From: Patescibacteria group bacterium
GTDB lineage: Bacteria > Patescibacteriota > Gracilibacteria > JAHISY01
Length of the DNA: 61,605 bases
Assembly (NCBI GenBank): GCA_043797545.1
Contig: JAZDPN010000064.1
Span: forward strand, 1 to 61,605
Direction: 5' to 3'
The stretch's first letter is position 1. Each line of letters opens with the position of its first letter. Both the position numbers and the translations under genes were made by a program. Positions 15,364 to 61,294 of the stretch are shown piece after piece. Under the pieces are notes generated by a model. It was given only the letters and a program-made list of their open reading frames with translations, searched no databases and was not told the DNA's origin.

Positions 15364-16307
15364 ATTTTTGGCAAAAGACCGCTCGTCCGGTTCTCGCGCT
15401 CGCGCCGATGGCCGGCTACACCGACTCCGCGTTTCGGCAGCTCATTCGCAGCTTTTCGAGAAAAGTAATTTTGTGGAGTGAATTCGTTTCGGCCGACGCG
15501 CTCAAATTCGATTCGAAAAAGTCGAAAGAGATGCTCGCATTCGCGCGAAACGAGCAGCCTTTCGTCGCACAAATTTTCGGGAAACGCGTCGAGAATTTCG
15601 TCGAAGCCGCGAAATTCGTCGAGTCGATCGGCGCGGTCGGCGTCGATTTGAATTTCGGTTGTCCGGCGAAAAAAGTCGTGAATTCCGATCACGGCTCGGC
15701 GCTGCTGAAAAATCCGCAACTCGCGAGCGAAATAATTTCAGCGGTAGCGAATTCGGTCAAAATCCCGACGAGCGTAAAAATGCGACTTGGCATTTCGGAC
15801 GACAAAAATCTCGAAAGTTTCGCAAAAATGGTCGAAAATTCCGGCGCACAACTTTTGACAATTCACGGGCGGACAGCGAAACAAATGTACCACGGCGAAG
15901 CTGATTTCGCGCCGATTTACCGCGTAAAAAAACTTGTGAAAATTCCGGTGCTCGGCAACGGCGACATCGACTCCGCGGACAAATTTTTCGCAAAATTGGG
16001 CAATCTCGACGGGCTGATGATCGGTCGCGCGGCGGTCCAAAATCCGTGGATTTTTCGCGAAATCGAAAATCGACTCGCGGGCAAAACTTCGAAAACGCCG
16101 CGCACTTTGCGAGCAAAAATTCCGACGATTTTGCGACACGCGCGATTGCTCGTCGCGACGAAAGGCGAAAAACGCGGGATGCTCGAGATGCGAAAATTTT
16201 CGGCCAATTATGTTCGCGGCGAACCGAATGCGAAAAAACTGCGCGCTAGCCTAGTCCGAGTTGAGAAACTGGCTGAACTGAAAAAAATCCTAATTCGGGC
16301 CGTTTAA
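15360..16307 (+). CDS. dus: tRNA-dihydrouridine synthase
   Basis: LAPMAGYTDSAFRQLI, LNFGCPAKKV and catalytic Cys context. TIM-barrel Dus layout. Confidence 0.92.
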   Translation: MNFWQKTARPVLALAPMAGYTDSAFRQLIRSFSRKVILWSEFVSADALKFDSKKSKEMLAFARNEQPFVAQIFGKRVENFVEAAKFVESIGAVGVDLNFGCPAKKVVNSDHGSALLKNPQLASEIISAVANSVKIPTSVKMRLGISDDKNLESFAKMVENSGAQLLTIHGRTAKQMYHGEADFAPIYRVKKLVKIPVLGNGDIDSADKFFAKLGNLDGLMIGRAAVQNPWIFREIENRLAGKTSKTPRTLRAKIPTILRHARLLVATKGEKRGMLEMRKFSANYVRGEPNAKKLRASLVRVEKLAELKKILIRAV

Positions 16308-17362
16308 TTGTCGTCGTGGCGTAAAAACGGCTCGATATGAGCCTCATCGACCAAACCGCGCGCGATCAAATCCTGAGAGAAGCGGCGCATGCTAATCATG
16401 CCCTGATTGGAAGAAGTCGTAATTGTGTTGTCGAGCTGCGGCGTATCGCCTTTGCGAATCGCATTGCGAATCGCGGCAGTCGTGATCATCAATTCAAAAA
16501 CGGCAATCCGCCCGCCACCCTTCTTGGGAACCAACCTCTGACTCAAGATCGCAATCAAGGAATCAGCCAGGCGTGCCAAGACCGCATCGCGCTGATCAAG
16601 CGGATAAGCCTGCATTAAGCGATTCACGGTCTGGGAAGCTGAATTCGTGTGTAAAGTCGAGAAAACGAGATGGCCCGTCTCGCACAAATTCAAAGCAGCC
16701 GTAATCGTATCGCGATCGCGCATTTCGCCGACCATGACAATATCAGGATCTTCGCGCAGAGCGACGCGCAGAGCTGCATCAAACGAACGCGTATCGTAAT
16801 TCAGCTCGCGCTGCGAAAAAATACATTTCTTATTCGTAAAAATGTACTCGATTGGATCTTCAATCGTGATGACATGCTCAATCCGCGTTTCGTTAATTTC
16901 TTCCAGCATCGAACGCAAAGTCGTCGATTTACCGCTACCGGTGGGGCCACACATCAAAATCAAACCTTGTTTACGTCGAATCAAATCATGAATCGCGGCT
17001 GGCACGCCGATCTCTTCCAGGGCCGGTAGGACTTTATCGACTTGGCGCATCACCAGCGCAATCCGGCCGCGACGATAAAAAGCATTGCAGCGAAAATTCG
17101 TACCGTCGGAATGCTGGTAAGAGAAATCAAATTCGCGGTCGACTTTCAGTCTTTCGATTTCCACCTGACCTTTGAGCATTTTGAAAATCACCGCCTCGGC
17201 ACTCGGTTCGTCGAGGATCGGGAGCGACTCGACCAAATGGATTTCGCCGAAAATTCGCAAAGCGGTTTTTTGGTCGGCCCCGAGATGAATATCGGAAGCC
17301 TGCTTGGCGATCGCAAGGTCGAGCAATTTTTGGAGATCGAAGACTGCTGGAGTATCTGTCAT
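16304..17362 (-). CDS. pilT: type IV pilus retraction ATPase PilT
   Basis: 352 aa. Walker A GPTGSGKSTT, Asp box, Walker B DPDIVMVGEMRD, His box FSTLHTNSA. PilT-sized, with no PilB N-terminal extension. Confidence 0.9.
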   Translation of the reverse strand: MTDTPAVFDLQKLLDLAIAKQASDIHLGADQKTALRIFGEIHLVESLPILDEPSAEAVIFKMLKGQVEIERLKVDREFDFSYQHSDGTNFRCNAFYRRGRIALVMRQVDKVLPALEEIGVPAAIHDLIRRKQGLILMCGPTGSGKSTTLRSMLEEINETRIEHVITIEDPIEYIFTNKKCIFSQRELNYDTRSFDAALRVALREDPDIVMVGEMRDRDTITAALNLCETGHLVFSTLHTNSASQTVNRLMQAYPLDQRDAVLARLADSLIAILSQRLVPKKGGGRIAVFELMITTAAIRNAIRKGDTPQLDNTITTSSNQGMISMRRFSQDLIARGLVDEAHIEPFLRHDDN

Positions 17363-17800
17363 TTAGGCTTTTTGATAATCAATCTCGGCCCGGGCCTTTT
17401 CGCGCTCGATGAATCTCTTGCCAACTAGCAAGTCGAAACTCGGCACATCAGCCGCGAGCTGAGTCGCGGTCGGACGATCGAGAATCAGAACTTCCGAATT
17501 GGAAAAAGCGCGCGCCGAAGCATTGCGCGTCTTTTGGCCGAGTGCACCGAGTTCGCCGAAAACGTCGCCCGGTTCGAGAAAAGCGACTTCTTCCGCCATC
17601 CCGTCGGCGATGCGAACAATCTCGACTTCTCCACTTTTGATCACGAAAAGTTGATCGCCGGCTTCACCTTCATGGAAAATGAATTCCCCCGCCGGAAAGC
17701 TTTTAATTTGAATTTTATCAATCAAAGCGGAATCACGTACTGCATCTAGATCGGCAAAAAGCGATAGTTTTTTAATCGCTGCCAGATTTGTAGGGAGCAT
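17363..17800 (-). CDS. stand-alone cyclic-nucleotide-binding domain protein (145 aa)
   Basis: CAP/PKA-type cNMP-binding fold (FHEGEAGDQLFVIKSGEVEI ... FGELGAL...RNASARA). Its TAA stop abuts the pilT ATG with no spacer. Confidence 0.82.
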   Translation of the reverse strand: MLPTNLAAIKKLSLFADLDAVRDSALIDKIQIKSFPAGEFIFHEGEAGDQLFVIKSGEVEIVRIADGMAEEVAFLEPGDVFGELGALGQKTRNASARAFSNSEVLILDRPTATQLAADVPSFDLLVGKRFIEREKARAEIDYQKA

Positions 17801-17829
17801 CCTTTTGGTTTTAGTTTAAAAACGCTGTT

Positions 17830-17838
17830 ATTTTAGCA
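17830..17838 (-). promoter_or_regulatory. extended -10 (TGCTAAAAT) for the cNMP-binding gene and pilT
   Basis: Plus strand reads ATTTTAGCA, 29 nt upstream of the ATG at 17800. Confidence 0.5.
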
Positions 17839-17896
17839 TAAAAATGATTCGAGGACAATCTCTGCCTTGGCTCAAATCGGGTAAAATCCAATCGCT

Positions 17897-18457
17897 TTGA
17901 CCCTCTTTCTACTCTTCACGCTAGCTCATTTATTGGGCGACTACCCTTTTCAAACTAGCTGGATTTATCTCCAAAAAACTAAAGGTCTGCCTGGTCAACT
18001 GCTACATGTCAGCATTTTAGGAGCCTGTTTCTTAATCCTGACTGCTCCCCTGCTGAGCAATCGGATCGTATTAAACGCACTCACCCTGATTTTAGTCATG
18101 CATTTTTTGCAAGACTTTTTGAAAATTGAGCTGGTAAGCAAACGCGGTAAAATCCGCCCTTTTCCGGCTCTCGTACTTGATCAAGCGCTGCACTTCGCAC
18201 TCTTGTTTGGAGTGACGAACCGACTTAATTCAGTCAATCTAAAAATCGGTTTTGGGGCGGACCTACTCGGATCACCTAGTTTGCCCTGGATTCTGTTTTA
18301 CTTAGCCACTCTGATCTTGGGAACTTTTACCTGGGATGTCGTAAGATTTGTTTGGCGCAACGAAACGAAAGAGTTGCAACACGACTGGCTAGCGCTTGGC
18401 CTGCGCGGCGCGATTATTACAATTATTTTTGGGGCAGTTTATTTACTGGATTGCTGA
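17897..18457 (+). CDS. DUF3307-like membrane protein
   Basis: N-terminal HLLGDYPFQT motif and multiple TM helices. Its 3' end overlaps the convergent FecR-like gene by 19 nt. Confidence 0.65.
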   Translation: MTLFLLFTLAHLLGDYPFQTSWIYLQKTKGLPGQLLHVSILGACFLILTAPLLSNRIVLNALTLILVMHFLQDFLKIELVSKRGKIRPFPALVLDQALHFALLFGVTNRLNSVNLKIGFGADLLGSPSLPWILFYLATLILGTFTWDVVRFVWRNETKELQHDWLALGLRGAIITIIFGAVYLLDC

Positions 18458-20991
18458 TTGTTTATAATCCCGTTAATCCCATTTTGAATTTTATTGACTA
18501 AATCTTGGCCGGTACTTTGAAAAAGTTGGCCGCTATTGATTTGTTCACTGGAAGATTTTTGTAACTCAGAAAAATCACTGGTGGATTGTTTTAGGCTTTC
18601 GACCGCTTCGGAAGCCTTTTGAGCGGTCGCCGCGGCTTCTTCAGCCGCTTTTTTGGCAGTCGCAGCAGCATCCTCAGCCGCTTTCTTGGCGGCCGCCTCT
18701 TCAGCTGCTTTCTTGACTCTAAGCTCTTCAGCCGCTTTCTTGGCAGTATTTGCAGCTTCCTCGGCTGCTTTTTTGGCAGCTGCCTCTTCGGCTGCTTTCT
18801 TGGCGGCATTAGCAATCTCCTCAGCTGCTTTCTTGGCTGCCGCCTCCTCGGCGGCTTGCTTGGCTCTCAGCTCCTCGGCTGCTTTCTTGGCTACAGCTTC
18901 TTCAGCAGCTTTCTTCGCTGCAGCTTCTTCAGCAGCCTTGCGCGCAATAGCTTCCTCGTCGGCTTTACGTTTTTTGGCCTCCTCTTCCTCGACAGCACGA
19001 CGGGCCTTAGCTTCTTCTTCTTTTTTAAGCTCAGCTTCAGCCTTACGCTCAAGCTCTAAATTTTTCGCCAGGTCAGGCTCATTGAGATTAGTTTCGAGCT
19101 TGATCTCGCTCTTACCAGTTTCGCCGAAAAAGTAATTTGCGTCCTGCTGGGCAGCTGTCTGAACCTGAGCCGGAGCAGCGTTGTCGGTAATTTCTTTAGC
19201 CTTTGATTTCAACCATTCAGAGTTGGTTTCGGGAATAAAGTCAGGTTTGGCAATACCTTTGTCTTTCAGCTGAGAAACCTCCGATAAAACCTCGGTTAGT
19301 TTTTGAGAATCGAGATTTTGCTTAGCTGAATTTTCAGATGAGAGACCCGGCTCAGCCTCGATATGCTCATTCAGTAAGCGCGAATCTTCGTTCAGGTTTG
19401 GTTTGTAATCACCAGTATTTTCGGGACCAGGCTGATCCTCAGAAGTAACCGTCGAAAGCAAGGGCGCGACCGCGTGGCCAATTTTGTTTTCGAGGTTTTG
19501 AGCTGTTTTGTCAGTATTAGCCGGATTTTGCTCTGGCTTTGTCCCATCTTGCTGGGATTCGGTTTTGACAGCCCGCGCAATCGCATCTCGGGCTTTTTCC
19601 GTCTCGTCAATATTATTAATCGCAGCCTGCAAGTAAGGATTAACTATCAGCTCTTGCAGATTTTCATTGGAAATTTTTCTGACTTCCGGAGCGGCGGCGA
19701 AATCACCGCGAATATCATCAGCTAATTTCTGGACAATCTTCTTGGCAGTTGTTTGCTCACCAGCCTTAGCTAAATCATAGGCTTCGATAATGCGTCTCTG
19801 ATATTGTTCTTTTTTAATCTCGTCTTTCTGGTCAGCCGGAGCGGACTCGACTTCGACTTCGTAAAGAAATTCTTTGGCGGCATAATCTCGATCCGTCGCG
19901 ACCGTCGAATTGGTTGTTTGTTTAGCGTTATTGATTACGCGAACGATGTTCTGTGCAATCTCAGTTTTCTTGGCCGCGTCAGTCGTCTGATCACGCGCTT
20001 CGGCTACTTGCAGAATCAAATCTTTAGCAGCGGCGAGCTGAGTCGTCGCGACATCTTCAGCTCCCTGACGCAGTAAAACCTGAGCTTCAAGCACTTTACG
20101 CTCGGCGATCTTGGAGGCGACAACCGCCTTTTGCTCCACGCCAAAAGCCGTCGAGAGCAGAAGCTGGTCACGCAAATTTTTCAACTTGTAACCAAACTCC
20201 CCCGGTAAAGCACCAACCAATTTCTCCTGAGCACGCTCGATTTTGCGCTGAACCTTAATTTCTTGAATCGCGTCGGCCTGTTCATTGCCTTGAAACCAAT
20301 CAGCCTTCTTCTCGTTATCGGCAATTTGCTCGACTTTGAAACGTACCGACCGCTGAGCTTCAGCACTCTCGAGGGTCGCATTGGCACGGCGCACGCGCGG
20401 GAAAGAACCCGCTTTCTGACCTTCGATAATTACAGTCGACTCGTCTTTTTCGGCGCTCGCGCGCTGAACTTTTTTGAGCAACAAACTGTGTTCGACTGCC
20501 ATTACAGTCGTATTGCCGTCGCTATTTACCGCAATGTCAAAGGCTGAACCGCGCACAGCTGCGGCGACATCGGCGGTAGCCACCTCAAAAGTCGATTCAC
20601 TATTGACCAGCTTGGTGACCTTGGACCAAACCTCTCCCAAATCAAGCCGCAACCTGACCCGACTCGCCGTCGCATCTGAATCCTCACCGGCAATCTCGGT
20701 CAGAGTAATTTTGGTGCTGCCGGATAAGCGCGAAACAGAGTTGTCAAAGAAAACAATCTCAGCCGAAGCGTCAGCCGCGGTCTCGATATTATCGCCGACG
20801 TGTAGGACATCTCCATCCAGCGCCGCAATTCCATTAATCCAGGCACGACCGTGTTCCAGCTTGATATGCGTGGCTTCATGGATTTCCGCCAAGACGTCCG
20901 GCATCAAGGCAGCTCGTGAAAGCAGCCCACTCTCGAAAATCGAGAAGGCAAAGGTCAGCAAAATGATTGCAACCCAAAATGATTTTTTCAT
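18439..20991 (-). CDS. secreted FecR-domain protein with long coiled-coil and Ala/Glu/Lys repeat tail (850 aa)
   Basis: Signal-peptide-like N-terminus and a FecR-like beta domain (GRAWINGIAALDGDVLHVGDNIETAADASAEIVFFDNSVSRL). The C-terminus carries iterated AAEEAAAKKAAEE units. Confidence 0.8.
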   Translation of the reverse strand: MKKSFWVAIILLTFAFSIFESGLLSRAALMPDVLAEIHEATHIKLEHGRAWINGIAALDGDVLHVGDNIETAADASAEIVFFDNSVSRLSGSTKITLTEIAGEDSDATASRVRLRLDLGEVWSKVTKLVNSESTFEVATADVAAAVRGSAFDIAVNSDGNTTVMAVEHSLLLKKVQRASAEKDESTVIIEGQKAGSFPRVRRANATLESAEAQRSVRFKVEQIADNEKKADWFQGNEQADAIQEIKVQRKIERAQEKLVGALPGEFGYKLKNLRDQLLLSTAFGVEQKAVVASKIAERKVLEAQVLLRQGAEDVATTQLAAAKDLILQVAEARDQTTDAAKKTEIAQNIVRVINNAKQTTNSTVATDRDYAAKEFLYEVEVESAPADQKDEIKKEQYQRRIIEAYDLAKAGEQTTAKKIVQKLADDIRGDFAAAPEVRKISNENLQELIVNPYLQAAINNIDETEKARDAIARAVKTESQQDGTKPEQNPANTDKTAQNLENKIGHAVAPLLSTVTSEDQPGPENTGDYKPNLNEDSRLLNEHIEAEPGLSSENSAKQNLDSQKLTEVLSEVSQLKDKGIAKPDFIPETNSEWLKSKAKEITDNAAPAQVQTAAQQDANYFFGETGKSEIKLETNLNEPDLAKNLELERKAEAELKKEEEAKARRAVEEEEAKKRKADEEAIARKAAEEAAAKKAAEEAVAKKAAEELRAKQAAEEAAAKKAAEEIANAAKKAAEEAAAKKAAEEAANTAKKAAEELRVKKAAEEAAAKKAAEDAAATAKKAAEEAAATAQKASEAVESLKQSTSDFSELQKSSSEQINSGQLFQSTGQDLVNKIQNGINGIINNQQSSK
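18590..19070 (-). repeat. in-frame tandem repeats encoding (K)AAEEAAAKK units
   Basis: Iterated GCTGCTTTCTTGGC...GCCTCTTCAGC units on the plus strand. They produce the spurious antisense ORFs 18619..19059 and 18653..19135. Confidence 0.8.
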
Positions 20992-21015
20992 TTATTTTTG
21001 TTTTAAAATCATGGC

Positions 21016-21024
21016 ATTTTAGCA
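21016..21024 (-). promoter_or_regulatory. extended -10 (TGCTAAAAT) for the FecR-like gene
   Basis: Plus strand reads ATTTTAGCA, ~25 nt upstream of the ATG at 20991. Confidence 0.5.
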
Positions 21025-21071
21025 CAAAACACCCAAAATCACAAACCAAAGTTAACCTTTTCGCCTTAAGC

Positions 21072-21461
21072 CTACGCTCCGATCCGTCTCACGATTTCGT
21101 TGAAAACTTCGGTCGAAAGTCCAAGTTTGACATTATTAAAGGCAGTCGTCGGCAAAAAAAGGGTTTCAAGTTTTTCAGCCGCGCGCACAGTCGCCGTCCT
21201 GGGTTTAGCAATCGCCAGTAAAGCCAGCTCGCCGAAAAAGTCATTGACATGCAAATCGGCAATCTTGCGCTCACCGCGCTCGACAAGCGCCGAGCCAGCT
21301 ATGATGACGTACATCCCATCTGGGATCGCACCTTCTTGAATCACGACCGCATTTTCGGCGAAATTTTTCTTGATGCAGGCCGCCGCCACGACACGCAAAT
21401 GATCAGTCGTCAGACCTTTGAAAAAAGGGAGTGTGCGCAGAGTTTCGATTAAATCATTCAT
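21072..21461 (-). CDS. stand-alone cyclic-nucleotide-binding domain protein (129 aa)
   Basis: FFKGL...VIQEGAIPDGMYVIIAGSA...FFGELALL...RTATVRA is a canonical phosphate-binding cassette. Lies 22 nt downstream of the cyclase gene. Confidence 0.85.
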   Translation of the reverse strand: MNDLIETLRTLPFFKGLTTDHLRVVAAACIKKNFAENAVVIQEGAIPDGMYVIIAGSALVERGERKIADLHVNDFFGELALLAIAKPRTATVRAAEKLETLFLPTTAFNNVKLGLSTEVFNEIVRRIGA

Positions 21462-21483
21462 CGCGGAAGGTAAATTAGCATTT

Positions 21484-23472
21484 TTATTTGATTTTTAAAA
21501 TCGTTTCTCCGCGCCAGTTCACGGGCGGTGGATTTTTGCGAAAGCGGGTAATCCTGGCAAGCATGACTGCCGAGGCGGGATGATGAATAGTGCGATAGAT
21601 CTGAACTGCTGTTTTGAAATCTCTTTTTCTATAAGCCGAGAACGCTTTCAGGCTTTTCTCCGCCAAACTAATCTGAGCCGCAGTCGCCGATTTTTTTTCC
21701 GCTAGTAATTCGTAAATTTCCGTAAATTCGCGCCGTCCTTTGACTACGACCCGATCAATCAAACGCGCCAGCAATTCCTTTTGGACTTTTTGGAAAGTCT
21801 CGCCGGAAATCAGAATTTGGGTGCCATAAATTTTATTCACGCCTTCAAGTCGGCTGGCGACATTGACCGCATCACCAATCGCGGTGTAATTGAAGCGAGT
21901 CGCTAAACCGAGGTTACCGACTACGGCTGGCCCGGTATGGATGCCAGTTCGCGCCTTGGGAACTTTGTCGGCCAGTATTTTTTTAGTAGCGAGCGCGGCC
22001 CGACAAGCCGCCAAGGCGTGATCGGGATTGGGCAGAGGCGCATTCCAAAAAGCCATGACGGCATCACCGATAAATTTATCAAGCGTGCCGCCGGCTGCAA
22101 GAACAGTCTTCGTAATCGCCCCTAGTCGCTCGTCGAGCATACGTACGACGGCAGAGGGAGACATTTTTTCAGAAATCTTGGTGAAATTTTCTAGATCGGC
22201 GAAAAAAATCGTCAGCTCGCGTTTCGCACCACCCAAACCCAAAGCCCGCGGATCATCCTCAATCTTGCGAACGAGCTCAGGCGCGAGATAACGCGAAAAA
22301 GCCTTTTGAAGATAGCGTAATTCTGCTCCTTTGCCGAAATAATGGTAGATGAGTGCTACGACCAAAATCGCCAGCGTTCCCCAAAGCAAAAAGGCAAAAG
22401 GCAGCAAAATTCCATTTTCGAAAGCAAAAATCGCTCCCAAAAGCTCGGCGAGAATTCCCAGTCCAAACAAAATCAAAGAAGTGACGAGCGGGAGCGTAAA
22501 AAACAAAATTCCAAAAATAATCAACGTCGCTCCAAGTAAAACCACAGCTCCTGATTGATTTAAGTTCTGAAGTGTCTGGCCGGAAAGCAGGGTCTGCAAA
22601 ATATTGGCATGAATCTCGACCCCGGACATCGCCTGCCCGGCCGAAACCGGAGTAAGTTGCTCATCATGAATGCCAGTCGCGTCAGTAAATCCAAGCAGGA
22701 CTATTTTGCCGCGGACTAAATCTGGATTGAAATTATTGTGAAAAATATCAGTGAAAGAAATGCGCGCAAAACTGCCGGGGCGACCGAAAAAATTAATTAG
22801 CAGCGAGCCATTTTCGAGTGGTGCGACGATCGGACCGTAAGTTTTTTGCAAAGCGAATGGTGATCTCAATTTGGATTGAGAAAAAACCAATCGATTGGGA
22901 GTCAGGCTTTGCGACGTTGTGCCAAAAAATTTTTCTAGGAGAACTAAGTCAAAATTCGCGATTTTACCGGAAAAAATAGGAACGCGACGCACCACCCCAT
23001 CGACTTGGTCGGCCGCAAGATTGGTAAAACCAAAATCAGCCGCGGCGCGAAATTCCGACAAAGGCAGTAGATCGGAATCGACATTTTTCTGAGCTGCCAA
23101 AACAAGATTGGGATTTAGGTTGAGCGTCTCGGTCAACAGCGCGTCATCAGCAGAAGTAGCAGCCTCGGAAAAAATCACATCCAAGCCAATCACTGCCGCT
23201 CCAGCGGATTGCAGATTGCGGAGCGCGGTCGCGAAAAATCCACGCCGCCAGTCTTGCCAGCGTCCCAAAACCGGATCGGCCAAGCTCGCATCGTCAATCG
23301 CAACTAGAATAACTTCAGGAGCAGCCCGATTTGTAGTCGAATAAATCCTGTCTTGTAGCGCGAGCTGCCAGCCGCCAAAAATTCCCTGGCCATAGAACCA
23401 AGTCCATAAAAAAGCGTTCAAAAGAATCAGCCCGGCCGAAACGAAAAACTTTTGGCGTTTATTTTTTTCCAC
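21484..23472 (-). CDS. CHASE2 sensor domain-containing class III adenylate/guanylate cyclase
   Basis: N-terminal TM plus a periplasmic CHASE2-like region, a 3-4 TM block, then a cyclase homology domain (LTIFFADLENFT, KFIGDAVMAFWNAP, RTGIHTGPAVVGNLG, YTAIGDAVNVASRLE). GTG start. Confidence 0.88.
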   Translation of the reverse strand: MEKNKRQKFFVSAGLILLNAFLWTWFYGQGIFGGWQLALQDRIYSTTNRAAPEVILVAIDDASLADPVLGRWQDWRRGFFATALRNLQSAGAAVIGLDVIFSEAATSADDALLTETLNLNPNLVLAAQKNVDSDLLPLSEFRAAADFGFTNLAADQVDGVVRRVPIFSGKIANFDLVLLEKFFGTTSQSLTPNRLVFSQSKLRSPFALQKTYGPIVAPLENGSLLINFFGRPGSFARISFTDIFHNNFNPDLVRGKIVLLGFTDATGIHDEQLTPVSAGQAMSGVEIHANILQTLLSGQTLQNLNQSGAVVLLGATLIIFGILFFTLPLVTSLILFGLGILAELLGAIFAFENGILLPFAFLLWGTLAILVVALIYHYFGKGAELRYLQKAFSRYLAPELVRKIEDDPRALGLGGAKRELTIFFADLENFTKISEKMSPSAVVRMLDERLGAITKTVLAAGGTLDKFIGDAVMAFWNAPLPNPDHALAACRAALATKKILADKVPKARTGIHTGPAVVGNLGLATRFNYTAIGDAVNVASRLEGVNKIYGTQILISGETFQKVQKELLARLIDRVVVKGRREFTEIYELLAEKKSATAAQISLAEKSLKAFSAYRKRDFKTAVQIYRTIHHPASAVMLARITRFRKNPPPVNWRGETILKIK

Positions 23473-23478: not shown

Positions 23479-23487
23479 ATTTTAGCG
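23479..23487 (-). promoter_or_regulatory. -10 element (CGCTAAAAT) 6 nt before the cyclase GTG (leaderless geometry)
   Basis: Plus strand reads ATTTTAGCG, followed by 6 nt and the CAC at 23470-23472. Confidence 0.5.
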
Positions 23488-23511: not shown

Positions 23512-23586
<75 letters not shown>

Positions 23587-24552: not shown

Positions 24553-27054
24553 ATGGAGCCTCCCGACTTACTTCGCGAAGACCCGCTCTTAACTGAAATT
24601 TTGGCAAAAATCGAGAATTGCATGCGTAGCTTCGATTTCGCTGCTCATAAAAAAGAACTCGAATCACAAAAACAGGCGAGAAAACGGCAAGGATTAGTGC
24701 TTTTCCGAGAAGATGATGACATAGCTATAGATCAAGATATTGAGGACGGCAATATCGCCGGACTCTCGAGAAGAGCTTCCGAAATTCAAAAAACTCGAAC
24801 TGACGAGCGGGCTCAAGCGCAGATTTTAAATCTGTATGAATTGATCGGATTACTACATCGCGCCAAAAACAATTTTGCCGGTTTTTTAGCTGGTTTCCAA
24901 AAAACCTTGGATTTTTTCGCAAAAGACCAGCTGAATTTTTCGGAACTTAGATTAAATTTACAAATTAGGGTCATTTATGCTTTAGAACAGCTGGTGGGCT
25001 ACGCGATCACTTATTCTCACGATTTTAATGAGGCCCTTTTATTAATGGAAAGGCTTGAAGAAAAAATTGAGCAACTTGATCCAAAGCTAATCGATGTCGA
25101 TACTTTCCGAGATAATCTGCGTCTCAATAGAGCTTCGGTATATCGCCGGCTCGGCAAACACAAGAAAGCAGAAGGCTTATTGTCCGAAGATCAGCACGAA
25201 GTACACTACCCGCAAAATCTAATACATCGCTACGTATATGTTTGTGAGCTTGCCCGAGCCAAGAGAGATCGTGAACAAATAAGACTTTGCTCTGATAATT
25301 TGCTTTTATTGATCGGAGGAATTAACGGGCAAGGCAAATTCGCTAATTTTTTCCAACAGCTTTTTATAGATCTCAGCGCAGCAGAAAAAAATGAAATTAC
25401 TGTGCGTATTCAAAAAGAATATCTGCTTTGTCTGCTGGAATTAGATCAACTTCCTGAATATGAGTCTAAGAAGATATCCTGGTCGGAAAGTTGGCGAGAA
25501 AACATGGCTAGCCAACCAGCTGATTTAGCAATACTTGAAGGAGATTTACTCTTAAAAGAAGCTGGAAAGTCGGGAACGGCCGATGATTCTGCGGATAGAA
25601 AATATCAAGGAGCAATAGGGCTGTATCAGGAAAATAACTTGGATTTTTGTGCTACCGAAGCTGTCATCCGCTATCTAAATAAATTTAAAGAAAAATTTCC
25701 TAGAGAAAAGTTGGAAGAGCTTTTTCTACGCCACTGGCAAATCGTCGAAAAAAATATCGGCCAAACAGTAATGCAGGTCTTCGCAGCCGAACATCAAGAA
25801 ACTGCCAGGGTTTCCTCTGTTCTATTCGAAATTGCCGAGTTGATAAAGTTCTTATACGGCACAGAAGGCTCAAACAAAGAAAAAACCTTACAGCAAGCAT
25901 TAATCTCTCTCGGTAAGAAAAACTTAACGGCCGCGAAAGAGAAAATAATTTTGCAAAATGACGATAACCCTGAGGATCAATATCGCAAATTAAGTGAGGC
26001 TTTCGGTGCGAAGGGTCTGCTAGCAATAAGCAAAGATGAAGGCGGAATGTGGAAAAAGGAATATTCTGCGCGAGCTGAAAAAGATGATTTCGACTGGCGA
26101 TATTTACTCGACCTCCCGGAAATTCAGGCAAAAATAGCCGAGGCAGACCGGACACAAAAAATGACCGAATTAAAATTTGTATTTACAAACACAAAATGTA
26201 CTGACGCTGCGATGCATTTAGTTTTTTTGCCCAATGAACCTGGACGGATCTCAATTGTTGACCGTGGCAGCAGACTTGGATTCTCGGACGCGGAAAAGCA
26301 ATTAATGCTGCCAGAGAAATTTCCACCGAAACGCATTCAAACAGGAGTCACAACAACTGTTGATAGAGACTACCAGCAAATTCAGCGGGCGATTGCGATG
26401 TTCTACCTGGAAAGAATTCCGCGCTTCCAAATTACGGCGGCCGAAAATATCGTCTATGCCTGGACCGAAGAAGACGGCCAAAAAAAAGTTCTCGGTGGTT
26501 TGTCAGCCAATATTTTGGAAAATGAAATTAACCACGCGGCTGGCGAGCATCTCAGCTATCCGGAAATTTTTGGCGGAGAGAATTTTTGGGAGACTTTAAA
26601 AACAGAGGTCGATAAGCAACTACAAGCTGGATCGCTATCACCGATTTGGCAAGAAGCTTTTCAACAAAAAGGTGAAGTCAAACGCGAACAATGCGCCGAG
26701 ATCGGCGGACTAGCCGCACGCGATGGAACAATAGCTCCAGCGATATTCCTGCAAACAACCAAGTTCTGCTTGGAAAAGAAACGACCCTGGATGATCATGA
26801 TTCGCAATGCAAGAGTCGAGCGCCTATTTAAACTAATCGGCATCGAAGCTGTGGACTTGGGATATGCCAATATCCAAGACAAAAAAGTACGAGCGGAGCT
26901 GTGCCAATCTGGTTGGGACACAGCAGGACTCACCGCCTGGGAAGCAGATTATTTCAATCGAGAATTGAATCCGAGGATGGTCATCCTAAATACTCAGCAA
27001 GCCCAAAATGCAATCTTGGCTTTCTTCCAAAAGAGGAATCGACCGCTAAAATAA
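24553..27054 (+). CDS. large hypothetical protein (833 aa): helical-repeat N-terminal region plus C-terminal GNAT/N-acyltransferase-like domain
   Basis: AT-rich ATG ORF. The first ~600 aa are helical/TPR-like with no motif I recognise. The last ~228 aa (nt 26368-27051) carry EIGGLAARDG...(25 aa)...WMIMIRNARVERLFKLIGIE...WEADYF...NPRMV. From memory this resembles the thermostable-hemolysin / N-acyl amino acid synthase branch of GNAT-fold enzymes. Confidence 0.75.
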   Translation: MEPPDLLREDPLLTEILAKIENCMRSFDFAAHKKELESQKQARKRQGLVLFREDDDIAIDQDIEDGNIAGLSRRASEIQKTRTDERAQAQILNLYELIGLLHRAKNNFAGFLAGFQKTLDFFAKDQLNFSELRLNLQIRVIYALEQLVGYAITYSHDFNEALLLMERLEEKIEQLDPKLIDVDTFRDNLRLNRASVYRRLGKHKKAEGLLSEDQHEVHYPQNLIHRYVYVCELARAKRDREQIRLCSDNLLLLIGGINGQGKFANFFQQLFIDLSAAEKNEITVRIQKEYLLCLLELDQLPEYESKKISWSESWRENMASQPADLAILEGDLLLKEAGKSGTADDSADRKYQGAIGLYQENNLDFCATEAVIRYLNKFKEKFPREKLEELFLRHWQIVEKNIGQTVMQVFAAEHQETARVSSVLFEIAELIKFLYGTEGSNKEKTLQQALISLGKKNLTAAKEKIILQNDDNPEDQYRKLSEAFGAKGLLAISKDEGGMWKKEYSARAEKDDFDWRYLLDLPEIQAKIAEADRTQKMTELKFVFTNTKCTDAAMHLVFLPNEPGRISIVDRGSRLGFSDAEKQLMLPEKFPPKRIQTGVTTTVDRDYQQIQRAIAMFYLERIPRFQITAAENIVYAWTEEDGQKKVLGGLSANILENEINHAAGEHLSYPEIFGGENFWETLKTEVDKQLQAGSLSPIWQEAFQQKGEVKREQCAEIGGLAARDGTIAPAIFLQTTKFCLEKKRPWMIMIRNARVERLFKLIGIEAVDLGYANIQDKKVRAELCQSGWDTAGLTAWEADYFNRELNPRMVILNTQQAQNAILAFFQKRNRPLK

Positions 27055-27058: not shown

Positions 27059-29164
27059 GTGCAAATAATAGTGTTTCTGCTCGCGCTCACGATCCTCTTC
27101 AATATTGTTGTTGCCATCACAGCTTTTTTAAAAACCAAGCGCAAGGACGCGGTAGTCTTTTTCGCGATTTATCTCTTGGGAGATATTCTCTGGACTGCAG
27201 GAATTCTCTATGCGATTTTGCACGCGCGCGAAACAGTTTTCCTCCCAGGCAGCACGGTCTTCGAAGTAATGAAATTGGTTTTTCTGGCGCCGCTTATTCT
27301 GTTAGTCGCACAAAATCTTTTTATCCAAACTTTACTTGGCGGCGTCAAACTGATGAAGACGAAGTTCAACTACTTTATTTTGGCTCTGACCATCATCACA
27401 GCCAGCATAATTCTTTTTGACAACACTCTGTTCTCAAGCGTGAAGGTTTATTTTGAGGGCTACATTGAGGTCGCGCGTGGCTTCATGAAAATTCCCTATT
27501 CACTTTTAGTCGTTTTTTACTACTTCTACCCGTTTTTTATTGTTAAAAAAAATCTAAAAAAACTGGATGACGAATTAAGTAAAAAACGAATCCGTCTTCT
27601 GCTTTGGACACACGGAATCGTGTATGGCAGCGGCATGATCACAAACATGATCCTTTCGGCTTTTCTCGGTATGCCGCAGCTAACCGGTATTGGCCCGATT
27701 TTTTCGCTAATCACGGCCGCGTTCTTTGTCTATGCGGTAACACGTTATCGCTTTCTCGACATCAAGTTCGTCATTTCCAAGACGGTCAAGATCGCCATCG
27801 CGTTGCTTTCGGCTTTCGGCACAGCCTACCTGCTGCCCAGATTTCTAGGAATTTTTTTGACAGGAAAATATATTACATATCTCAACCCCTTCAGTTTAAT
27901 CGCGGCATTGGCGGTTTACCTGTCTAGCATCCGGTTTTTTAATTCGGATAAATTTCACCGCTTTTTTGGTATTTCCAACGTGGAATATTTCCGAGCTACC
28001 ATCAAAGAATTTCGAAATAAAAACATTATCTACACAAATGTGCACGAACTCAGAAAGGATTTGCACGAAATTTTTTCTGTAAAATTAAGAGTCGATTTTG
28101 TCGATGTCCTCCTCTGGGATGATGAAAGCCGCAAAAAATTTCCACGTCTTTTAAAATTCGTTTCGCAGAGCAGCGAAACTTTAGTCTTGAAAGAACTGCT
28201 ATTTCTGAGCCAGAATAATCCCATTAAAAAAATGCTAGCCCAAGAAATTGAGAAATTGGGCGAAGTCATCGTCCCGCTTTTTCAGCCTTCTCGTGAACCA
28301 ATCGGCCTATTACTGCTCGGCAAAAAAGTTTTCGGGGATCCCTACTATGTCGGAGAAATCGAGGCGTTGCAGCGCGCCCAGTCACATCTCAGTCTGCGTT
28401 TGACCGGTGCAATTTTCAACTCGCAGCTCAAAAAAGAAGTACGCCGTAAAACCGAAAGCCTCAAAAAACAAAATGAGCGCATCCGTGAATTAATGCGCCA
28501 ACAAGCTGATTTTATCGCGGTCTCGGCGCACGAGCTTCGTACGCCGCTCTCTATCGCGATTTTACAAACCGAAATGCTCGAGGCTAGCTTGGCCAATTCT
28601 GACAAAGAGGATGATGCCAGGAACGCAAGCGAGGCTCTGCACAAATTGCAGGACTTGGTTCAAAAACTTTTTACAGTTCAAAAATTTGATATTAAAAAAG
28701 TTGACTTGAGCCTACGAAAAATCCGGCTAAGCGATTTTCTGGCTAAAATTTTCCGAGACTTTGAGGCCGTCATGCGAGAAAAGGCGATCGATTTTCGGCT
28801 CGAAAATAAGTTGAATCTTAATTTCACAGTCGCGCTTGATCCGCTCCAAATCCGACAGGTCTTACAAAATGTTTTATCCAATGCCGTGAAATTCACTCCT
28901 CGCAATGGTCGAGTCGTTTTACGGGCCGAGCAGCATGGTGAAAATGTTTTACTCGCAATTCGCAATTCGGGCAGCCTGATTCCTGATCAGGACAAAAAAG
29001 CGATCTTCGAAAAATTTCGCAGCTTGCGCAATTCCAAAAGCAAAGGTCTCGGACTCGGACTCTACTTGGCCAAAAAAATTATCGAGCTGCACCGAGGCAA
29101 AATCTGGGTCGAAGATGTCGATCGCGAAACCGAATTTCGGATTCAACTTCCCAGCAACGTCTGA
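27059..29164 (+). CDS. sensor histidine kinase with ~8-9 TM N-terminal sensor domain
   Basis: About 290 aa of closely spaced TM helices, a cytoplasmic linker/GAF-like region, H-box FIAVSAHELRTPLS, N-box LSNAVKFTP and G-box GLGLGLYLAKKIIELHRG. GTG start 4 nt after the upstream stop. Confidence 0.9.
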   Translation: MQIIVFLLALTILFNIVVAITAFLKTKRKDAVVFFAIYLLGDILWTAGILYAILHARETVFLPGSTVFEVMKLVFLAPLILLVAQNLFIQTLLGGVKLMKTKFNYFILALTIITASIILFDNTLFSSVKVYFEGYIEVARGFMKIPYSLLVVFYYFYPFFIVKKNLKKLDDELSKKRIRLLLWTHGIVYGSGMITNMILSAFLGMPQLTGIGPIFSLITAAFFVYAVTRYRFLDIKFVISKTVKIAIALLSAFGTAYLLPRFLGIFLTGKYITYLNPFSLIAALAVYLSSIRFFNSDKFHRFFGISNVEYFRATIKEFRNKNIIYTNVHELRKDLHEIFSVKLRVDFVDVLLWDDESRKKFPRLLKFVSQSSETLVLKELLFLSQNNPIKKMLAQEIEKLGEVIVPLFQPSREPIGLLLLGKKVFGDPYYVGEIEALQRAQSHLSLRLTGAIFNSQLKKEVRRKTESLKKQNERIRELMRQQADFIAVSAHELRTPLSIAILQTEMLEASLANSDKEDDARNASEALHKLQDLVQKLFTVQKFDIKKVDLSLRKIRLSDFLAKIFRDFEAVMREKAIDFRLENKLNLNFTVALDPLQIRQVLQNVLSNAVKFTPRNGRVVLRAEQHGENVLLAIRNSGSLIPDQDKKAIFEKFRSLRNSKSKGLGLGLYLAKKIIELHRGKIWVEDVDRETEFRIQLPSNV

Positions 29165-30375: not shown

Positions 30376-30384
30376 ATTTTAGCA
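30376..30384 (-). promoter_or_regulatory. extended -10 (TGCTAAAAT) 7 nt before the metF ATG (leaderless geometry)
   Basis: Minus strand reads TTTGCTAAAAT-TAAGAAA-ATG. Confidence 0.55.
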
Positions 30385-31516: not shown

Positions 31517-32056
31517 TTACCAAAAAGTTTTTTTGAGGCCGAGGAAATAAGCCGACAAATTGACCAAAGGATTCGCGATCGAAGCAAAAAGCAGTAAAAA
31601 TAGACTCGCGCGCCATTCCCAATTAATTAAAAAATTGGTAAAAACTAAAAATCCCAAAATGTAATCAATCTGGTCAAGCGGTAAGAATGGTCGTCCGGGA
31701 GCAATACGCCAAAGCCTTTTGAGAAAACTGCCCGCCAAATCTCCGACCAAAGCACCCAGTCCGGCCAGCGCGCCGAAAAGCAAAAATTGCCCAAGATGCT
31801 CCAAGAGACCAGTCGAGTAGATTTGGTACTTTTGAAAACAAAACTGGAGCGCGCCAATTAGCGCGCCACCAAGCGTCCCGGCCAATAGGCCGCGCCAAGA
31901 CTTGTTTTGGCCGAAAATCTCGCGACCCAGAAATTTTTTACCGCAATCAACTGGCCGCGCCAAAACCGGGCAAAAATTAATTTTCGTCGCCAAGACTGGC
32001 AACATATTGGCCACAAAAGCCGGGAGTGCGAGATACAAAATCGCAAAATAGCTCAT
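31517..32056 (-). CDS. CarS-like (CDP-archaeol synthase family, DUF46) integral membrane cytidylyltransferase
   Basis: 179 aa. LPAFVANMLPV, GQNKSWRGLLAG, GDLAGSFLKR and GRPFLPLDQIDYILG match my recollection of the CarS family blocks. Confidence 0.75.
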   Translation of the reverse strand: MSYFAILYLALPAFVANMLPVLATKINFCPVLARPVDCGKKFLGREIFGQNKSWRGLLAGTLGGALIGALQFCFQKYQIYSTGLLEHLGQFLLFGALAGLGALVGDLAGSFLKRLWRIAPGRPFLPLDQIDYILGFLVFTNFLINWEWRASLFLLLFASIANPLVNLSAYFLGLKKTFW

Positions 32057-34015: not shown

Positions 34016-34022
34016 GCGTTGG

Positions 34023-34031
34023 ATTTTAGAC
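34023..34031 (-). promoter_or_regulatory. -10 element (GTCTAAAAT) 7 nt before the pgsA GTG (leaderless geometry)
   Basis: Minus strand reads CGTCTAAAAT-CCAACGC-GTG. Heads the pgsA-pgpA-epimerase-CarS-like-dprA string. Confidence 0.5.
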
Positions 34032-34056
34032 GAAATACAGGCAAAATTGCGACTTC

Positions 34057-44617: not shown

Positions 44618-44626
44618 AATCTTGGG

Positions 44627-57520: not shown

Positions 57521-57529
57521 ATTTTAGCA
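57521..57529 (-). promoter_or_regulatory. extended -10 (TGCTAAAAT) 6 nt before the leuD ATG (leaderless geometry)
   Basis: Minus strand reads TTTGCTAAAAT-GCCCTT-ATG. Confidence 0.55.
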
Positions 57530-61285: not shown

Positions 61286-61294
61286 ATTTTAGCC
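61286..61294 (-). promoter_or_regulatory. -10 element (GGCTAAAAT) 6 nt before the fumarase GTG (leaderless geometry)
   Basis: Minus strand reads TGGGCTAAAAT-GCGCGC-GTG. Confidence 0.5.

What the first reader, a model, noticed from the sequence alone, without database searches (positions are those of the whole stretch)
16304..23472. Cyclic-nucleotide module wired to the type IV pilus retraction ATPase
Within 7 kb, all on the minus strand apart from one small gene, lie: a CHASE2-sensor class III nucleotide cyclase (21484-23472, leaderless); 22 nt downstream, a 129-aa stand-alone cNMP-binding protein with a canonical FGELAL...RTATVRA cassette; an 850-aa secreted FecR-domain/coiled-coil protein; a DUF3307 membrane protein; and a second stand-alone cNMP-binding protein (145 aa). 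The stop codon of that last gene directly abuts the pilT ATG (TAA-ATG). Neither cNMP-binding protein has an output domain, so each must act through a partner, and the second is positioned to be PilT's. CHASE2 and FecR-like proteins are frequent genomic neighbours, as far as I recall. Proposed circuit: extracellular cue -> CHASE2 cyclase -> cAMP/cGMP -> single-domain receptors -> pilus retraction. This would be notable in a lineage where type IV pili are thought to mediate host attachment and DNA uptake. The link is inferred from gene order only.
Basis: partly seen in the sequence, partly recalled or inferred. Interest (0 to 1): 0.65.

Follow-up and report, generated by a model that had tools for sequence, protein, structure and literature searches.

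The report
cAMP sensor gene coupled to pilT
In a small clade of uncultivated Peribacteraceae (CPR/Patescibacteria), a CRP-like cyclic-nucleotide sensor protein with no DNA-binding domain is always encoded in a tightly coupled two-gene operon with the pilus-retraction motor PilT, often beside a membrane adenylate cyclase, which suggests but does not prove direct cAMP control of pilus retraction.

Summary

What holds up best is the cNMP2-pilT pair:
- It is adjacent and overlapping or abutting in all 7 orthologous lineages I could inspect.
- It has its own conserved TGCTAAAAT promoter.
- It survives in a lineage where the cyclase, cNMP1, FecR and DUF3307 genes are absent from the neighbourhood.

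The individual proteins look functional. cNMP2 is a CRP-type sensor domain plus long C-helix without an HTH, and its phosphate-binding cassette is invariant with an unusual Arg-Asn-Ala. The cyclase has every catalytic residue and Lys/Thr specificity residues, making it a class IIIb adenylate cyclase. PilT is canonical.

What is weaker:
- The cyclase-to-pilT link rests on synteny among close relatives, and the genes lie in separate transcription units.
- The pairing is confined to one narrow clade. The sister PilT clade (66% identity) and CNB relatives at 36-45% identity lack it.
- No CNB-PilT fusion exists among the homologues screened.
- The one structural docking attempt was uninformative.

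I found no published precedent for a CNB protein partnered with PilT.

Verdict: a real, conserved and probably functional coupling, and a new variant of second-messenger control of pilus motors. The mechanism is inferred, not shown.

The parts
23479..23486 (-). GCTAAAAT -10-like promoter element 6 nt upstream of the cyclase GTG (probable leaderless transcript cyclase-cNMP1)
   Evidence: the same element-N6-start geometry occurs at 5 other genes in the window
21484..23472 (-). CHASE2-sensor, membrane-bound class IIIb adenylate cyclase (662 aa)
   Evidence: Pfam CHASE2 1.9e-47 and Guanylate_cyc 1.8e-19. TM segments at about 9-32 and 304-380. Metal Asp x2, Lys (GGTLDKFIGD), Thr (NYTAIGD), Asn and Arg (VNVASRLE) all present and conserved in orthologues. 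Best PDB hit is P. aeruginosa CyaB 3r5g, 2.5e-28.
21072..21461 (-). cNMP1: stand-alone cyclic-nucleotide-binding protein (129 aa), 22 nt downstream of the cyclase
   Evidence: PF00027 2e-15. Canonical cassette FGELALLAIAKPRTATVRA, conserved in 3 orthologues. Always follows the cyclase in L004, L007, L009/L012.
21016..21024 (-). TGCTAAAAT extended -10 promoter for the FecR-domain gene
   Evidence: motif occurs 11 times in the window against 0.78 expected
18439..20991 (-). Exported or anchored FecR + DUF5667 protein with Ala/Lys/Glu 9-aa repeat tail (850 aa)
   Evidence: Pfam FecR 8e-13, DUF5667 3.8e-9; N-terminal hydrophobic segment; 27-nt tandem repeat 18665-18933
17897..18457 (+). DUF3307 multi-pass membrane protein, transcribed divergently from cNMP2-pilT
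   Evidence: Pfam 4.6e-12; TM segments; present next to cNMP2 in 6 of 7 lineages
17830..17838 (-). TGCTAAAAT extended -10 promoter of the cNMP2-pilT operon (29 nt before the ATG)
   Evidence: the same element is upstream of cNMP2 in L004, L007, L009 and L011 (TGCTACAAT in L005)
17363..17800 (-). cNMP2: CRP-type sensor domain plus long C-helix, no output domain (145 aa)
   Evidence: PF00027 6e-23. Cassette F81-G-E-L-G-x-L-G-x-K-x-R-N-A-S-A-R-A98 invariant in 10 orthologues, apart from one Asn93-to-Asp change in P0005. AF2 pLDDT 84, pTM 0.79. Foldseek best hit MtbCRP+cAMP, TMq 0.77.
17360..17365 (-). TAA|ATG junction between cNMP2 and pilT (same frame in this genome)
   Evidence: Orthologues: 8-nt ATGnnTGA overlap (4 lineages), 14-nt and 32-nt overlaps.
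16304..17362 (-). PilT-type type IVa pilus retraction ATPase (352 aa)
   Evidence: TIGR01420 393.7 bits against cut-off 319.1. A. aeolicus PilT 2ewv 2.5e-84. Walker A GPTGSGKST, Walker B DPDIVMVGEMRD, His box TGHLVFSTLHTN, AIRNAIRKG.

Best explanation
cNMP2 and pilT form a dedicated bicistronic, translationally coupled operon. cNMP2 is a CRP-like cyclic-nucleotide receptor that has no DNA-binding domain. It most likely binds cAMP and acts protein-to-protein on its co-expressed partner, the PilT hexamer, switching pilus retraction on or off, or controlling PilT recruitment.

In most members of the clade the cAMP would come from the neighbouring CHASE2 adenylate cyclase. Its extracytoplasmic sensor domain, possibly together with the exported FecR/DUF5667 protein, reads an envelope or host-contact cue. 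cNMP1, encoded 22 nt after the cyclase, is a second receptor of unknown target.

Shown: the gene content, intact catalytic and ligand-binding motifs, the conserved pair geometry and promoter, and the CRP-like fold.

Inferred: ligand identity, physical contact with PilT, the direction of the effect, and the link between this cyclase and cNMP2.
For: - The pair is adjacent in 7 of 7 orthologous lineages (window, L001-3/14, L004/13, L005/6, L007/8, L009/12, L011). Identities are cNMP2 53-71% and PilT 71-83%.
- The start/stop overlap or abutment is conserved: 8 nt ATGnnTGA in four lineages, 14 nt, 32 nt, and TAA|ATG here. The TGCTAAAAT promoter upstream of cNMP2 is also conserved.
- The pair persists where the cyclase, cNMP1, FecR and DUF3307 genes are missing within 10 kb (L001-3), and where FecR is missing (L011).
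- cNMP2 has no output domain. It is soluble and models confidently as a CRP sensor domain plus a 25-residue C-helix. Its cassette is invariant apart from one Asn93-to-Asp change, and its hinge motif P120-x-F-D-x-x-V-G is fully invariant.
- The cyclase active site is complete, with Lys/Thr specificity residues as in the class IIIb adenylate cyclases CyaC and CyaB.
- There are no other pilus genes within the 61.6-kb window, so pilT's only conserved functional neighbour is cNMP2.
- CHASE2 cyclase/FecR-domain clusters are reported elsewhere (PMC9239204).
Against: - There is no direct evidence of binding. The AF2 model of the concatenated chain left the CNB part unfolded (pLDDT 26-56) and so is uninformative.
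- No CNB+T2SSE fusion appears among the best 120 cNMP2-profile hits or in ten long PilT homologues.
- The nine residues that distinguish paired from unpaired PilTs are scattered.
- The arrangement is confined to one 50%-identity cluster of cNMP2. The closest unpaired PilT (66% identity, L029) works without it.
- Cyclase and pilT are in different transcription units. The complete neighbourhood is seen only in genomes that are syntenic with this one far beyond the module.
- The cassette has Arg-Asn-Ala where Ser/Thr/Ala is usual, so ligand affinity or identity is not certain.
Confidence: 0.5

Rival explanations
1. cNMP2 is a cAMP receptor that is co-expressed with PilT but acts on another component of the pilus machine (PilB, PilC or PilM) or on an unrelated target. 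Alternatively it simply buffers cAMP. In this reading the operon reflects co-regulation, not a complex.
For: - Stand-alone CNB proteins are common in many contexts. The nearest relatives of cNMP2 (36-45% identity) sit next to unrelated genes such as SLH proteins, GGDEF-GAF-HD proteins and YjdM.
- No fusion or structural evidence ties cNMP2 to PilT.
Against: - Overlapping start/stop codons in all 7 lineages, and retention of exactly this pair through rearrangements, are what is expected for proteins made in fixed stoichiometry.
- No other candidate target is conserved beside it.
Confidence: 0.27
2. cNMP2 is a ligand-independent, or non-cNMP-binding, structural accessory of PilT that merely uses the CNB fold. 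The nearby cyclase is unrelated to it.
For: - Asn93 replaces the usual Ser/Thr/Ala after the cassette Arg, and this is a subfamily hallmark.
- CNB-fold proteins binding other ligands are known (established knowledge of the CRP/FNR superfamily).
- The pair occurs without a nearby cyclase in L001-3.
Against: - Gly82, Glu83, Arg92 and Ala94, the residues that contact the ribose-phosphate, are invariant.
- PKA RI-alpha has Ala at the equivalent position and binds cAMP (my own knowledge).
- Four of the seven lineages keep an active adenylate cyclase within 4 kb.
Confidence: 0.12
3. The cyclase plus CNB proteins are a Pycsar-like anti-phage signalling system, and pilT is a bystander.
For: PADLOC models for Pycsar cyclase (95 bits) and CNB-TIR effectors (33-43 bits) hit the cyclase and both CNB proteins.
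Against: - The hits cover only the generic cyclase and CNB domains.
- Neither CNB protein has a TIR or transmembrane killing domain.
- The cyclase is a CHASE2 membrane sensor with purine (ATP)-type Lys/Thr residues.
- The genes are core-genome syntenic and not in an island.
Confidence: 0.02
4. The adjacency is inherited by descent in a young clade and has no functional meaning.
For: All carriers belong to one narrow clade. Several of them are broadly syntenic with the window.
Against: - cNMP2 has diverged to 53% identity, and flanking genes differ completely in L001-3, L005 and L011, yet the junction geometry and promoter are retained.
Confidence: 0.09

Closest known systems
Pseudomonas aeruginosa Pil-Chp / CyaB - cAMP - Vfr control of type IV pili
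   Same: A class III adenylate cyclase makes cAMP, which is read by a CRP-fold receptor and feeds into type IV pilus function. The best PDB match of the cyclase domain here is CyaB (3r5g). The pathway is described in PMC11656802.
   Different: Vfr is a transcription factor with an HTH. cNMP2 ends after the C-helix and has no DNA-binding domain. CyaB has a MASE2 membrane module and is driven by PilG, whereas here the sensor is CHASE2. Control here would be post-translational and aimed at the retraction motor.
c-di-GMP control of pilus extension ATPases (MshE/PilB N-terminal domain; FimX-PilZ-PilB)
   Same: A nucleotide second messenger, read by a small receptor or adaptor, acts directly on a PilB/PilT-superfamily motor ATPase (PMC5595344, PMC11656802).
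   Different: The messenger is different (c-di-GMP), the receptor folds are different (MshEN, PilZ, EAL), and the target is the extension motor, not PilT.
CRP/GlxR/MtbCRP cAMP-sensor domain
   Same: The fold and C-helix match: TMq 0.77 to MtbCRP+cAMP, E 2e-13. The Gly-Glu...Arg-x-Ala cassette is present.
   Different: There is no HTH_Crp_2 domain, and the protein is 145 aa rather than about 210-230. It has Arg-Asn-Ala instead of Arg-Ser/Thr-Ala.
CHASE2 adenylate cyclase - FecR-domain protein - phosphodiesterase - TPR protein cluster of Campylobacterota; S. meliloti CyaD1/CyaD2/CyaK-Clr with FecR-domain SMc02177
   Same: A CHASE2-sensor adenylate cyclase lies next to, or is functionally linked with, an exported FecR-domain protein (PMC9239204, PMC5498481).
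   Different: No phosphodiesterase or TPR gene is present in this module. Those systems have no stand-alone CNB proteins and no pilT.
P. aeruginosa CbpA (non-CRP cAMP-binding protein)
   Same: A bacterial cAMP receptor that is not a transcription factor (mentioned in PMC11139211).
   Different: CbpA's partner and function are unknown, and it is not reported to be linked to pilT. I did not run a sequence comparison here.
Pycsar (cyclase + CNB-effector anti-phage system)
   Same: A class III-like cyclase is encoded next to CNB-domain proteins.
   Different: There is no effector (TIR or TM) domain. The cyclase is a membrane CHASE2 sensor with ATP-type specificity residues.

Membership tests
Cyclic-nucleotide-binding (CNB) domain proteins, PF00027 | Profile match above the curated threshold | tested here: met
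   cNMP2 81.1 bits and cNMP1 57.0 bits against a cut-off of 27.5
Cyclic-nucleotide-binding (CNB) domain proteins, PF00027 | Phosphate-binding cassette Gly-Glu ... Arg-[Ser/Thr/Ala]-Ala | tested here: met
   cNMP1 has FGELAL...PRTATVRA. cNMP2 has G82, E83, R92 and A94 invariant, but Asn93 (Asp in P0005) in place of Ser/Thr/Ala.
Cyclic-nucleotide-binding (CNB) domain proteins, PF00027 | Eight-stranded beta-barrel with N-terminal helices and B/C helices | tested here: met
   AF2 pLDDT 84.2 and pTM 0.79; Foldseek TMq 0.77 to MtbCRP
Cyclic-nucleotide-binding (CNB) domain proteins, PF00027 | Measured binding of cAMP or cGMP | not testable with these tools
   Needs ITC, DRaCALA or fluorescence assays with purified protein
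CRP/FNR transcription factors | C-terminal helix-turn-helix DNA-binding domain (HTH_Crp_2, PF13545) | tested here: not met
   No HTH hit. The protein ends at the C-helix, residue 145. Foldseek aligns only to the N-terminal half of CRPs (TMt about 0.5).
PilT/PilU type IVa pilus retraction ATPases (TIGR01420) | Family profile above the curated cut-off | tested here: met
   393.7 bits against 319.1. PilB, GspE, DotB and VirB11 models are all far below their cut-offs.
PilT/PilU type IVa pilus retraction ATPases (TIGR01420) | Walker A, Walker B/Asp box, His box and the AIRNLIRE-type motif | tested here: met
   GPTGSGKST, DPDIVMVGEMRD, TGHLVFSTLHTN, AIRNAIRKG. Conserved in the alignment.
PilT/PilU type IVa pilus retraction ATPases (TIGR01420) | Acts with a type IV pilus machine (pilB, pilC, pilM, pilins) in the same genome | not tested
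   No pil genes in the 61.6-kb window. The rest of the genome is not available. Peribacteria are reported to encode type IV pili and twitching genes (PMC4736985).
Class III (IIIb) adenylate cyclases | Two metal-binding Asp and the transition-state Asn and Arg | tested here: met
   FFADLENFT, FIGDAVMAF, AVNVASRLE, aligned to CyaB, CyaC and Cya2. Invariant in orthologues.
Class III (IIIb) adenylate cyclases | Substrate-specifying Lys plus Asp/Thr (ATP) rather than Glu plus Cys/Gly (GTP) | tested here: met
   Lys in GGTLDKFIGD aligns with Glu of the Cya2 guanylate cyclase (2w01) and with Lys of CyaC, CyaB and 6fht. Thr in NYTAIGD aligns with Thr of CyaC and CyaB.
Class III (IIIb) adenylate cyclases | Measured cAMP synthesis | not testable with these tools
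   Needs an enzyme assay
CHASE2-cyclase / FecR / PDE / TPR cluster (Campylobacterota type) | CHASE2 cyclase adjacent to a FecR-domain exported protein | tested here: met
   Conserved in L004, L007 and L009/12.
CHASE2-cyclase / FecR / PDE / TPR cluster (Campylobacterota type) | cAMP phosphodiesterase and TPR protein in the cluster | tested here: not met
   No such domains among the six genes or their immediate neighbours
Pycsar anti-phage system | CNB domain fused to a TIR or transmembrane effector domain | tested here: not met
   Both CNB proteins are single-domain and soluble. PADLOC hits cover only the CNB portion of the models.

The most novel reading that the evidence does not exclude
cNMP2 is the first example of a cAMP receptor that acts directly and post-translationally on a type IV pilus motor. 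It would be a 'headless CRP' that binds the PilT hexamer and gates retraction in response to an envelope or host-contact signal sensed by a CHASE2 adenylate cyclase. That would give an episymbiotic CPR bacterium a fast, transcription-independent switch between pilus attachment and pulling.
Probability: 0.35. Interest if true: 0.75.

Novelty: new variant of a known kind. Interest (0 to 1): 0.5.

Why it matters
Regulation of pilus extension and retraction in Patescibacteria is explicitly listed as an open question in recent experimental work on Saccharibacteria pili (PMC11623550).

Known second-messenger inputs to pilus motors are of two kinds. c-di-GMP acts on the extension ATPase, and cAMP acts through a transcription factor (PMC11656802). 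A review also notes that in most bacteria cAMP works only through CRP (PMC11139211).

A DNA-binding-free CRP-like receptor that is always co-translated with PilT would add a third mode: cAMP acting directly on the retraction motor. It also yields a simple two-protein system that can be tested in vitro without cultivating the organism. Its narrow distribution limits generality but makes it a clean natural experiment, because sister PilTs lack the partner.

Tried and rejected
1. Complex prediction. The concatenated cNMP2+PilT chain with an unpaired 75-sequence alignment was accepted, but the CNB part came out unfolded (pLDDT 26-56, pTM 0.69). The tool returns no PAE or coordinates, so nothing can be said about docking.
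2. Rosetta-stone search. There is no PF00437 among the best 120 cNMP2-profile hits. Ten PilT homologues of 443-602 aa have no CNB domain in their extensions at E <= 0.1. The representative-library search was dominated by multi-CNB proteins and gave no fusion lead.
3. Wider distribution.
   - The genome-contig scan with PilT gave only 5 loci, 3 of them from the same clade.
   - The metagenome scan with the cNMP2 profile gave 4 distant CNB loci, none with PilT.
   - CNB relatives at 36-45% identity were not next to PilT in the three lineages where downstream DNA could be read (L023/24, L025/26, L027/28). L021/L022 (P0016) is undetermined, because the contigs end about 50 nt after the gene.
4. 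Clade-specific PilT residues as an interface hint: only 9, and scattered. The sister clade's extra 25-40 residues are a low-complexity N-terminal tail.
5. Pycsar/defence reading: rejected.
6. Programmed read-through of the in-frame TAA: rejected as a conserved feature, because the orthologues overlap out of frame.
7. Literature. No paper was found linking a CNB protein to PilT, or describing cAMP signalling in Peribacteria. DUF3307 has no informative literature.

Full report
**1. What is there**

Pfam and NCBIfam confirm each of them:
- A CHASE2 + class III cyclase protein (21484-23472, minus strand, 662 aa, GTG start).
- A 129-aa single-domain CNB protein, cNMP1 (21072-21461), 22 nt downstream of the cyclase.
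- An 850-aa FecR + DUF5667 protein (18439-20991).
- A DUF3307 membrane protein on the plus strand (17897-18457).
- A 145-aa single-domain CNB protein, cNMP2 (17363-17800).
- A PilT/PilU-family ATPase (16304-17362; TIGR01420 393.7 bits against a cut-off of 319.1).

The cNMP2 stop codon TAA is followed immediately by the pilT ATG, and in this genome the two ORFs are in the same frame. A tRNA-Met gene (23512-23586, minus strand) lies just upstream of the cyclase. Hydropathy fits the expected topologies:
- The cyclase has an N-terminal hydrophobic segment and a block of segments at 304-380 flanking the CHASE2 domain.
- The FecR protein has one N-terminal hydrophobic segment.
- DUF3307 is multi-pass.
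- Both CNB proteins and PilT are soluble.

The FecR protein ends in about 9.5 copies of a 27-nt repeat encoding an Ala/Lys/Glu-rich 9-mer.

**2. Organism and surroundings**

The closest relatives are metagenome-assembled genomes labelled Candidatus Peribacteraceae, 'Patescibacteria group' or 'Gracilibacteria'. The standard genetic code gives long ORFs. The rest of the 61.6-kb window is housekeeping: tRNA synthetases, SecY, S2, EF-Ts, lipid and amino-acid genes, and DprA. It contains no other pilus gene, so pilT is an orphan here with cNMP2 as its only pilus-relevant neighbour.

**3. Transcription units**

An extended -10-like element, TGCTAAAAT, occurs 11 times in the window against 0.78 expected.
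- One copy sits 29 nt upstream of the cNMP2 ATG.
- Another sits 24 nt upstream of the FecR gene.
- GCGCTAAAAT ends 6 nt before the cyclase GTG. The same element-N6-start geometry occurs at five other genes, which supports leaderless transcription.

With DUF3307 on the opposite strand, the region therefore splits into [cyclase-cNMP1], [FecR gene], [DUF3307] and [cNMP2-pilT]. The cyclase and pilT are neighbours, not one operon.

**4. Is the cNMP2-pilT adjacency conserved?**

Yes, within its clade. cNMP2 has only about ten 90%-identity clusters of orthologues (53-71% identity) among 5.8 billion proteins. At 50% clustering they collapse to a single representative among 1.84 billion.

Every orthologue whose contig extends downstream is followed directly by a PilT orthologue of 71-83% identity. 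This gives seven distinct lineages: window, L001-3/L014, L004/L013, L005/6, L007/8, L009/L012 and L011. The junction is always tight: an 8-nt ATGnnTGA overlap in four lineages, 14 nt in one, 32 nt in one, and abutment here. The TGCTAAAAT promoter upstream of cNMP2 is retained.

The pair is also kept when the context changes.
- In L001-3 it lies between purine-biosynthesis genes and a 3688-aa SLH protein, with no cyclase, cNMP1, FecR or DUF3307 gene within 10 kb.
- In L011 the FecR gene is absent.
- In L005 the downstream genes differ.

By contrast, the loci that keep the whole six-gene neighbourhood (L004, L009/12, L007/8) are syntenic with the window well beyond it (Dus, U32 peptidase, dehydroquinase, EF-Ts and S2 on one side; MTHFR, response regulator and histidine kinase on the other). 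Their agreement therefore says little about selection on the cyclase-pilT link.

**5. Limits of the distribution**

- The next-closest PilT clade (58-66% identity), for example P0130 on an 842-kb contig, has no CNB gene upstream.
- CNB relatives of cNMP2 at 36-45% identity sit in unrelated contexts.
- Distant PilT loci (Clostridium, Saccharibacteria) have no such gene.
- No protein combining CNB and T2SSE domains appeared among the best 120 profile hits, and ten unusually long PilT homologues have no CNB domain.

The pairing is a recent, lineage-specific innovation.

**6. Are the parts functional?**

*Cyclase.* Alignment to solved class III cyclases shows both metal-binding Asp, the transition-state Asn and Arg, a Lys at the position that is Glu in the Cya2 guanylate cyclase, and a Thr at the second specificity position as in CyaC and CyaB. 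This is the class IIIb adenylate-cyclase pattern, and all of these residues are invariant in orthologues. The best PDB match is the catalytic domain of P. aeruginosa CyaB (2.5e-28).

*cNMP1.* It has a textbook cassette (FGELAL...PRTATVRA) that is conserved.

*cNMP2.*
- It has F81-G-E-L-G-x-L-G-x-K-x-R-N-A-S-A-R-A98, conserved in all ten orthologues with one Asn93-to-Asp exception (P0005).
- The ribose-phosphate contacts (Gly, Glu, Arg, Ala) are present.
- The residue after Arg is Asn instead of the usual Ser/Thr. This is a hallmark shared with its nearest non-paired relatives.
- An AlphaFold model with a 62-sequence alignment is confident (pLDDT 84, pTM 0.79). It shows the beta-barrel, a B helix, and a 25-residue C helix that starts at the invariant P120-x-F-D-x-x-V-G motif.
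- The closest solved structures are the sensor halves of MtbCRP, GlxR and CAP (TMq up to 0.77). cNMP2 is in effect a CRP without its DNA-binding domain.

*PilT.* It has Walker A, Walker B, the His box and AIRNAIRKG, and it matches A. aeolicus PilT at 2.5e-84.

**7. Tests of a physical link**

These were uninformative or negative.
- The concatenated cNMP2+PilT chain was accepted by the predictor, but the CNB part did not fold (pLDDT 26-56) while PilT did (above 90).
- Only nine residues separate paired from unpaired PilTs, and they are scattered.
- The sister clade's extra length is a low-complexity N-terminal tail.

**8. Interpretation**

The best-supported statement is narrow: cNMP2 and PilT are made together, in fixed proportion, from a dedicated operon that selection has preserved through rearrangements. 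A single-domain, soluble, CRP-like receptor with an intact cassette needs a protein partner, and PilT is the only conserved candidate.

My preferred mechanism (about 0.5) is that cAMP-bound or cAMP-free cNMP2 binds PilT and changes its activity or recruitment. This probably works through the hinge/C-helix surface that moves on ligand binding in all CNB proteins (established knowledge of CNB allostery).

The cyclase is predicted active and ATP-specific, it lies within 4 kb in four of the seven lineages, and CHASE2 cyclase/FecR neighbourhoods are described in Campylobacterota (PMC9239204). But it rests on proximity only.

Rivals are listed separately: co-expression without contact, a ligand-independent accessory, inherited adjacency without function, and a Pycsar-like system. 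PADLOC hits are domain-level only.

**9. Comparison with known systems**

- cAMP control of pili in P. aeruginosa runs through Vfr and transcription.
- c-di-GMP acts on extension ATPases directly or through FimX-PilZ (PMC11656802, PMC5595344).
- A review notes that in most bacteria cAMP acts only via CRP, with CbpA as a rare non-CRP receptor (PMC11139211).
- I found no report of a CNB protein partnered with PilT, and none of cAMP signalling in Peribacteria.

cNMP2 passes the membership tests for a CNB domain and fails the one for a CRP-family transcription factor, because it has no HTH.

**10. Verdict**

This is a new variant of second-messenger control of pilus motors. It is well supported as a conserved genetic coupling, and unproven as a mechanism. 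Interest is moderate (0.5): the hypothesis is testable and addresses an acknowledged gap in CPR pilus biology (PMC11623550), but it applies to one narrow uncultivated clade and rests on gene order.

Noticed in passing
window 23479-23486, 27045-27052, 30376-30383, 44613-44620, 57521-57528, 61286-61293 (and 11 TGCTAAAAT sites overall): A GCTAAAAT / TGCTAAAAT -10-like element is strongly over-represented (11 against 0.78 expected). At six genes it ends exactly 6-7 nt before the start codon, which suggests that leaderless mRNAs are common in this genome.
   Followed up: partly
window 37923-40163 (+): The aspartyl-tRNA synthetase (746 aa) carries a C-terminal YbaK-type aminoacyl-tRNA editing domain (PF04073, 2.4e-29). 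This is an unusual fusion for AspRS.
   Followed up: no
window 54678-57035 (-): A 785-aa protein fuses an ATP-grasp domain (ATPgrasp_ST, 1e-51) to a MATCAP-like carboxypeptidase domain (1e-55). It could be a ligase/peptidase pair acting on a peptide tail.
   Followed up: no
window 31517-32056 (-), with 32053-33072, 33479-34201, 34057-35094: A CarS-like (CDP-archaeol synthase family) gene sits beside a CDP-alcohol phosphatidyltransferase, an epimerase and a glycerol-3-phosphate dehydrogenase. This looks like a lipid-synthesis cluster with an archaeal-type member in a bacterium.
   Followed up: no
window 40696-41400 (-) and 41448-42656 (-): A stand-alone GGDEF diguanylate cyclase lies directly downstream of a DHH/DHHA1 phosphoesterase. 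This is a second nucleotide-messenger module in the same window.
   Followed up: no
window 24553-27054 (+), 27059-29164 (+): An 833-aa protein with only a weak thermostable-hemolysin-like hit lies in a low-GC stretch (0.39 against about 0.48). It is immediately followed by a histidine kinase whose start is also preceded by GCTAAAAT-N6.
   Followed up: no
window 17360-17365 (-): cNMP2 and pilT are in the same reading frame, separated only by TAA, so stop-codon read-through would give a 497-aa fusion. In the orthologues the genes overlap out of frame, so this is not conserved.
   Followed up: yes
L021 7528-10498; L022 6109-9079: The nearest non-paired relative of cNMP2 (P0016, 45% identity) lies head-to-head, 7 nt apart, with an 821-aa GGDEF-GAF-HD protein. 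This hints at CNB/c-di-GMP cross-talk in a related lineage.
   Followed up: no
P0129-P0138 (e.g. L029 10001-11131): PilTs of the unpaired sister clade carry a 25-40 residue low-complexity Thr/Ala/Ser-rich N-terminal extension that the CNB-paired PilTs lack.
   Followed up: partly
window 30420-31502 (-): DprA (DNA-processing protein A, 4.8e-73) is present, consistent with natural competence in this lineage.
   Followed up: no
window 21484-21690 (-), cyclase residues about 595-662: The cyclase has a conserved helical extension of about 70 residues after the catalytic domain (ending ...PPPVNWRGETILKIK). It has no Pfam match, is conserved in Peribacteraceae orthologues, and is absent from the distant CHASE2 cyclase in L027.
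   Followed up: partly
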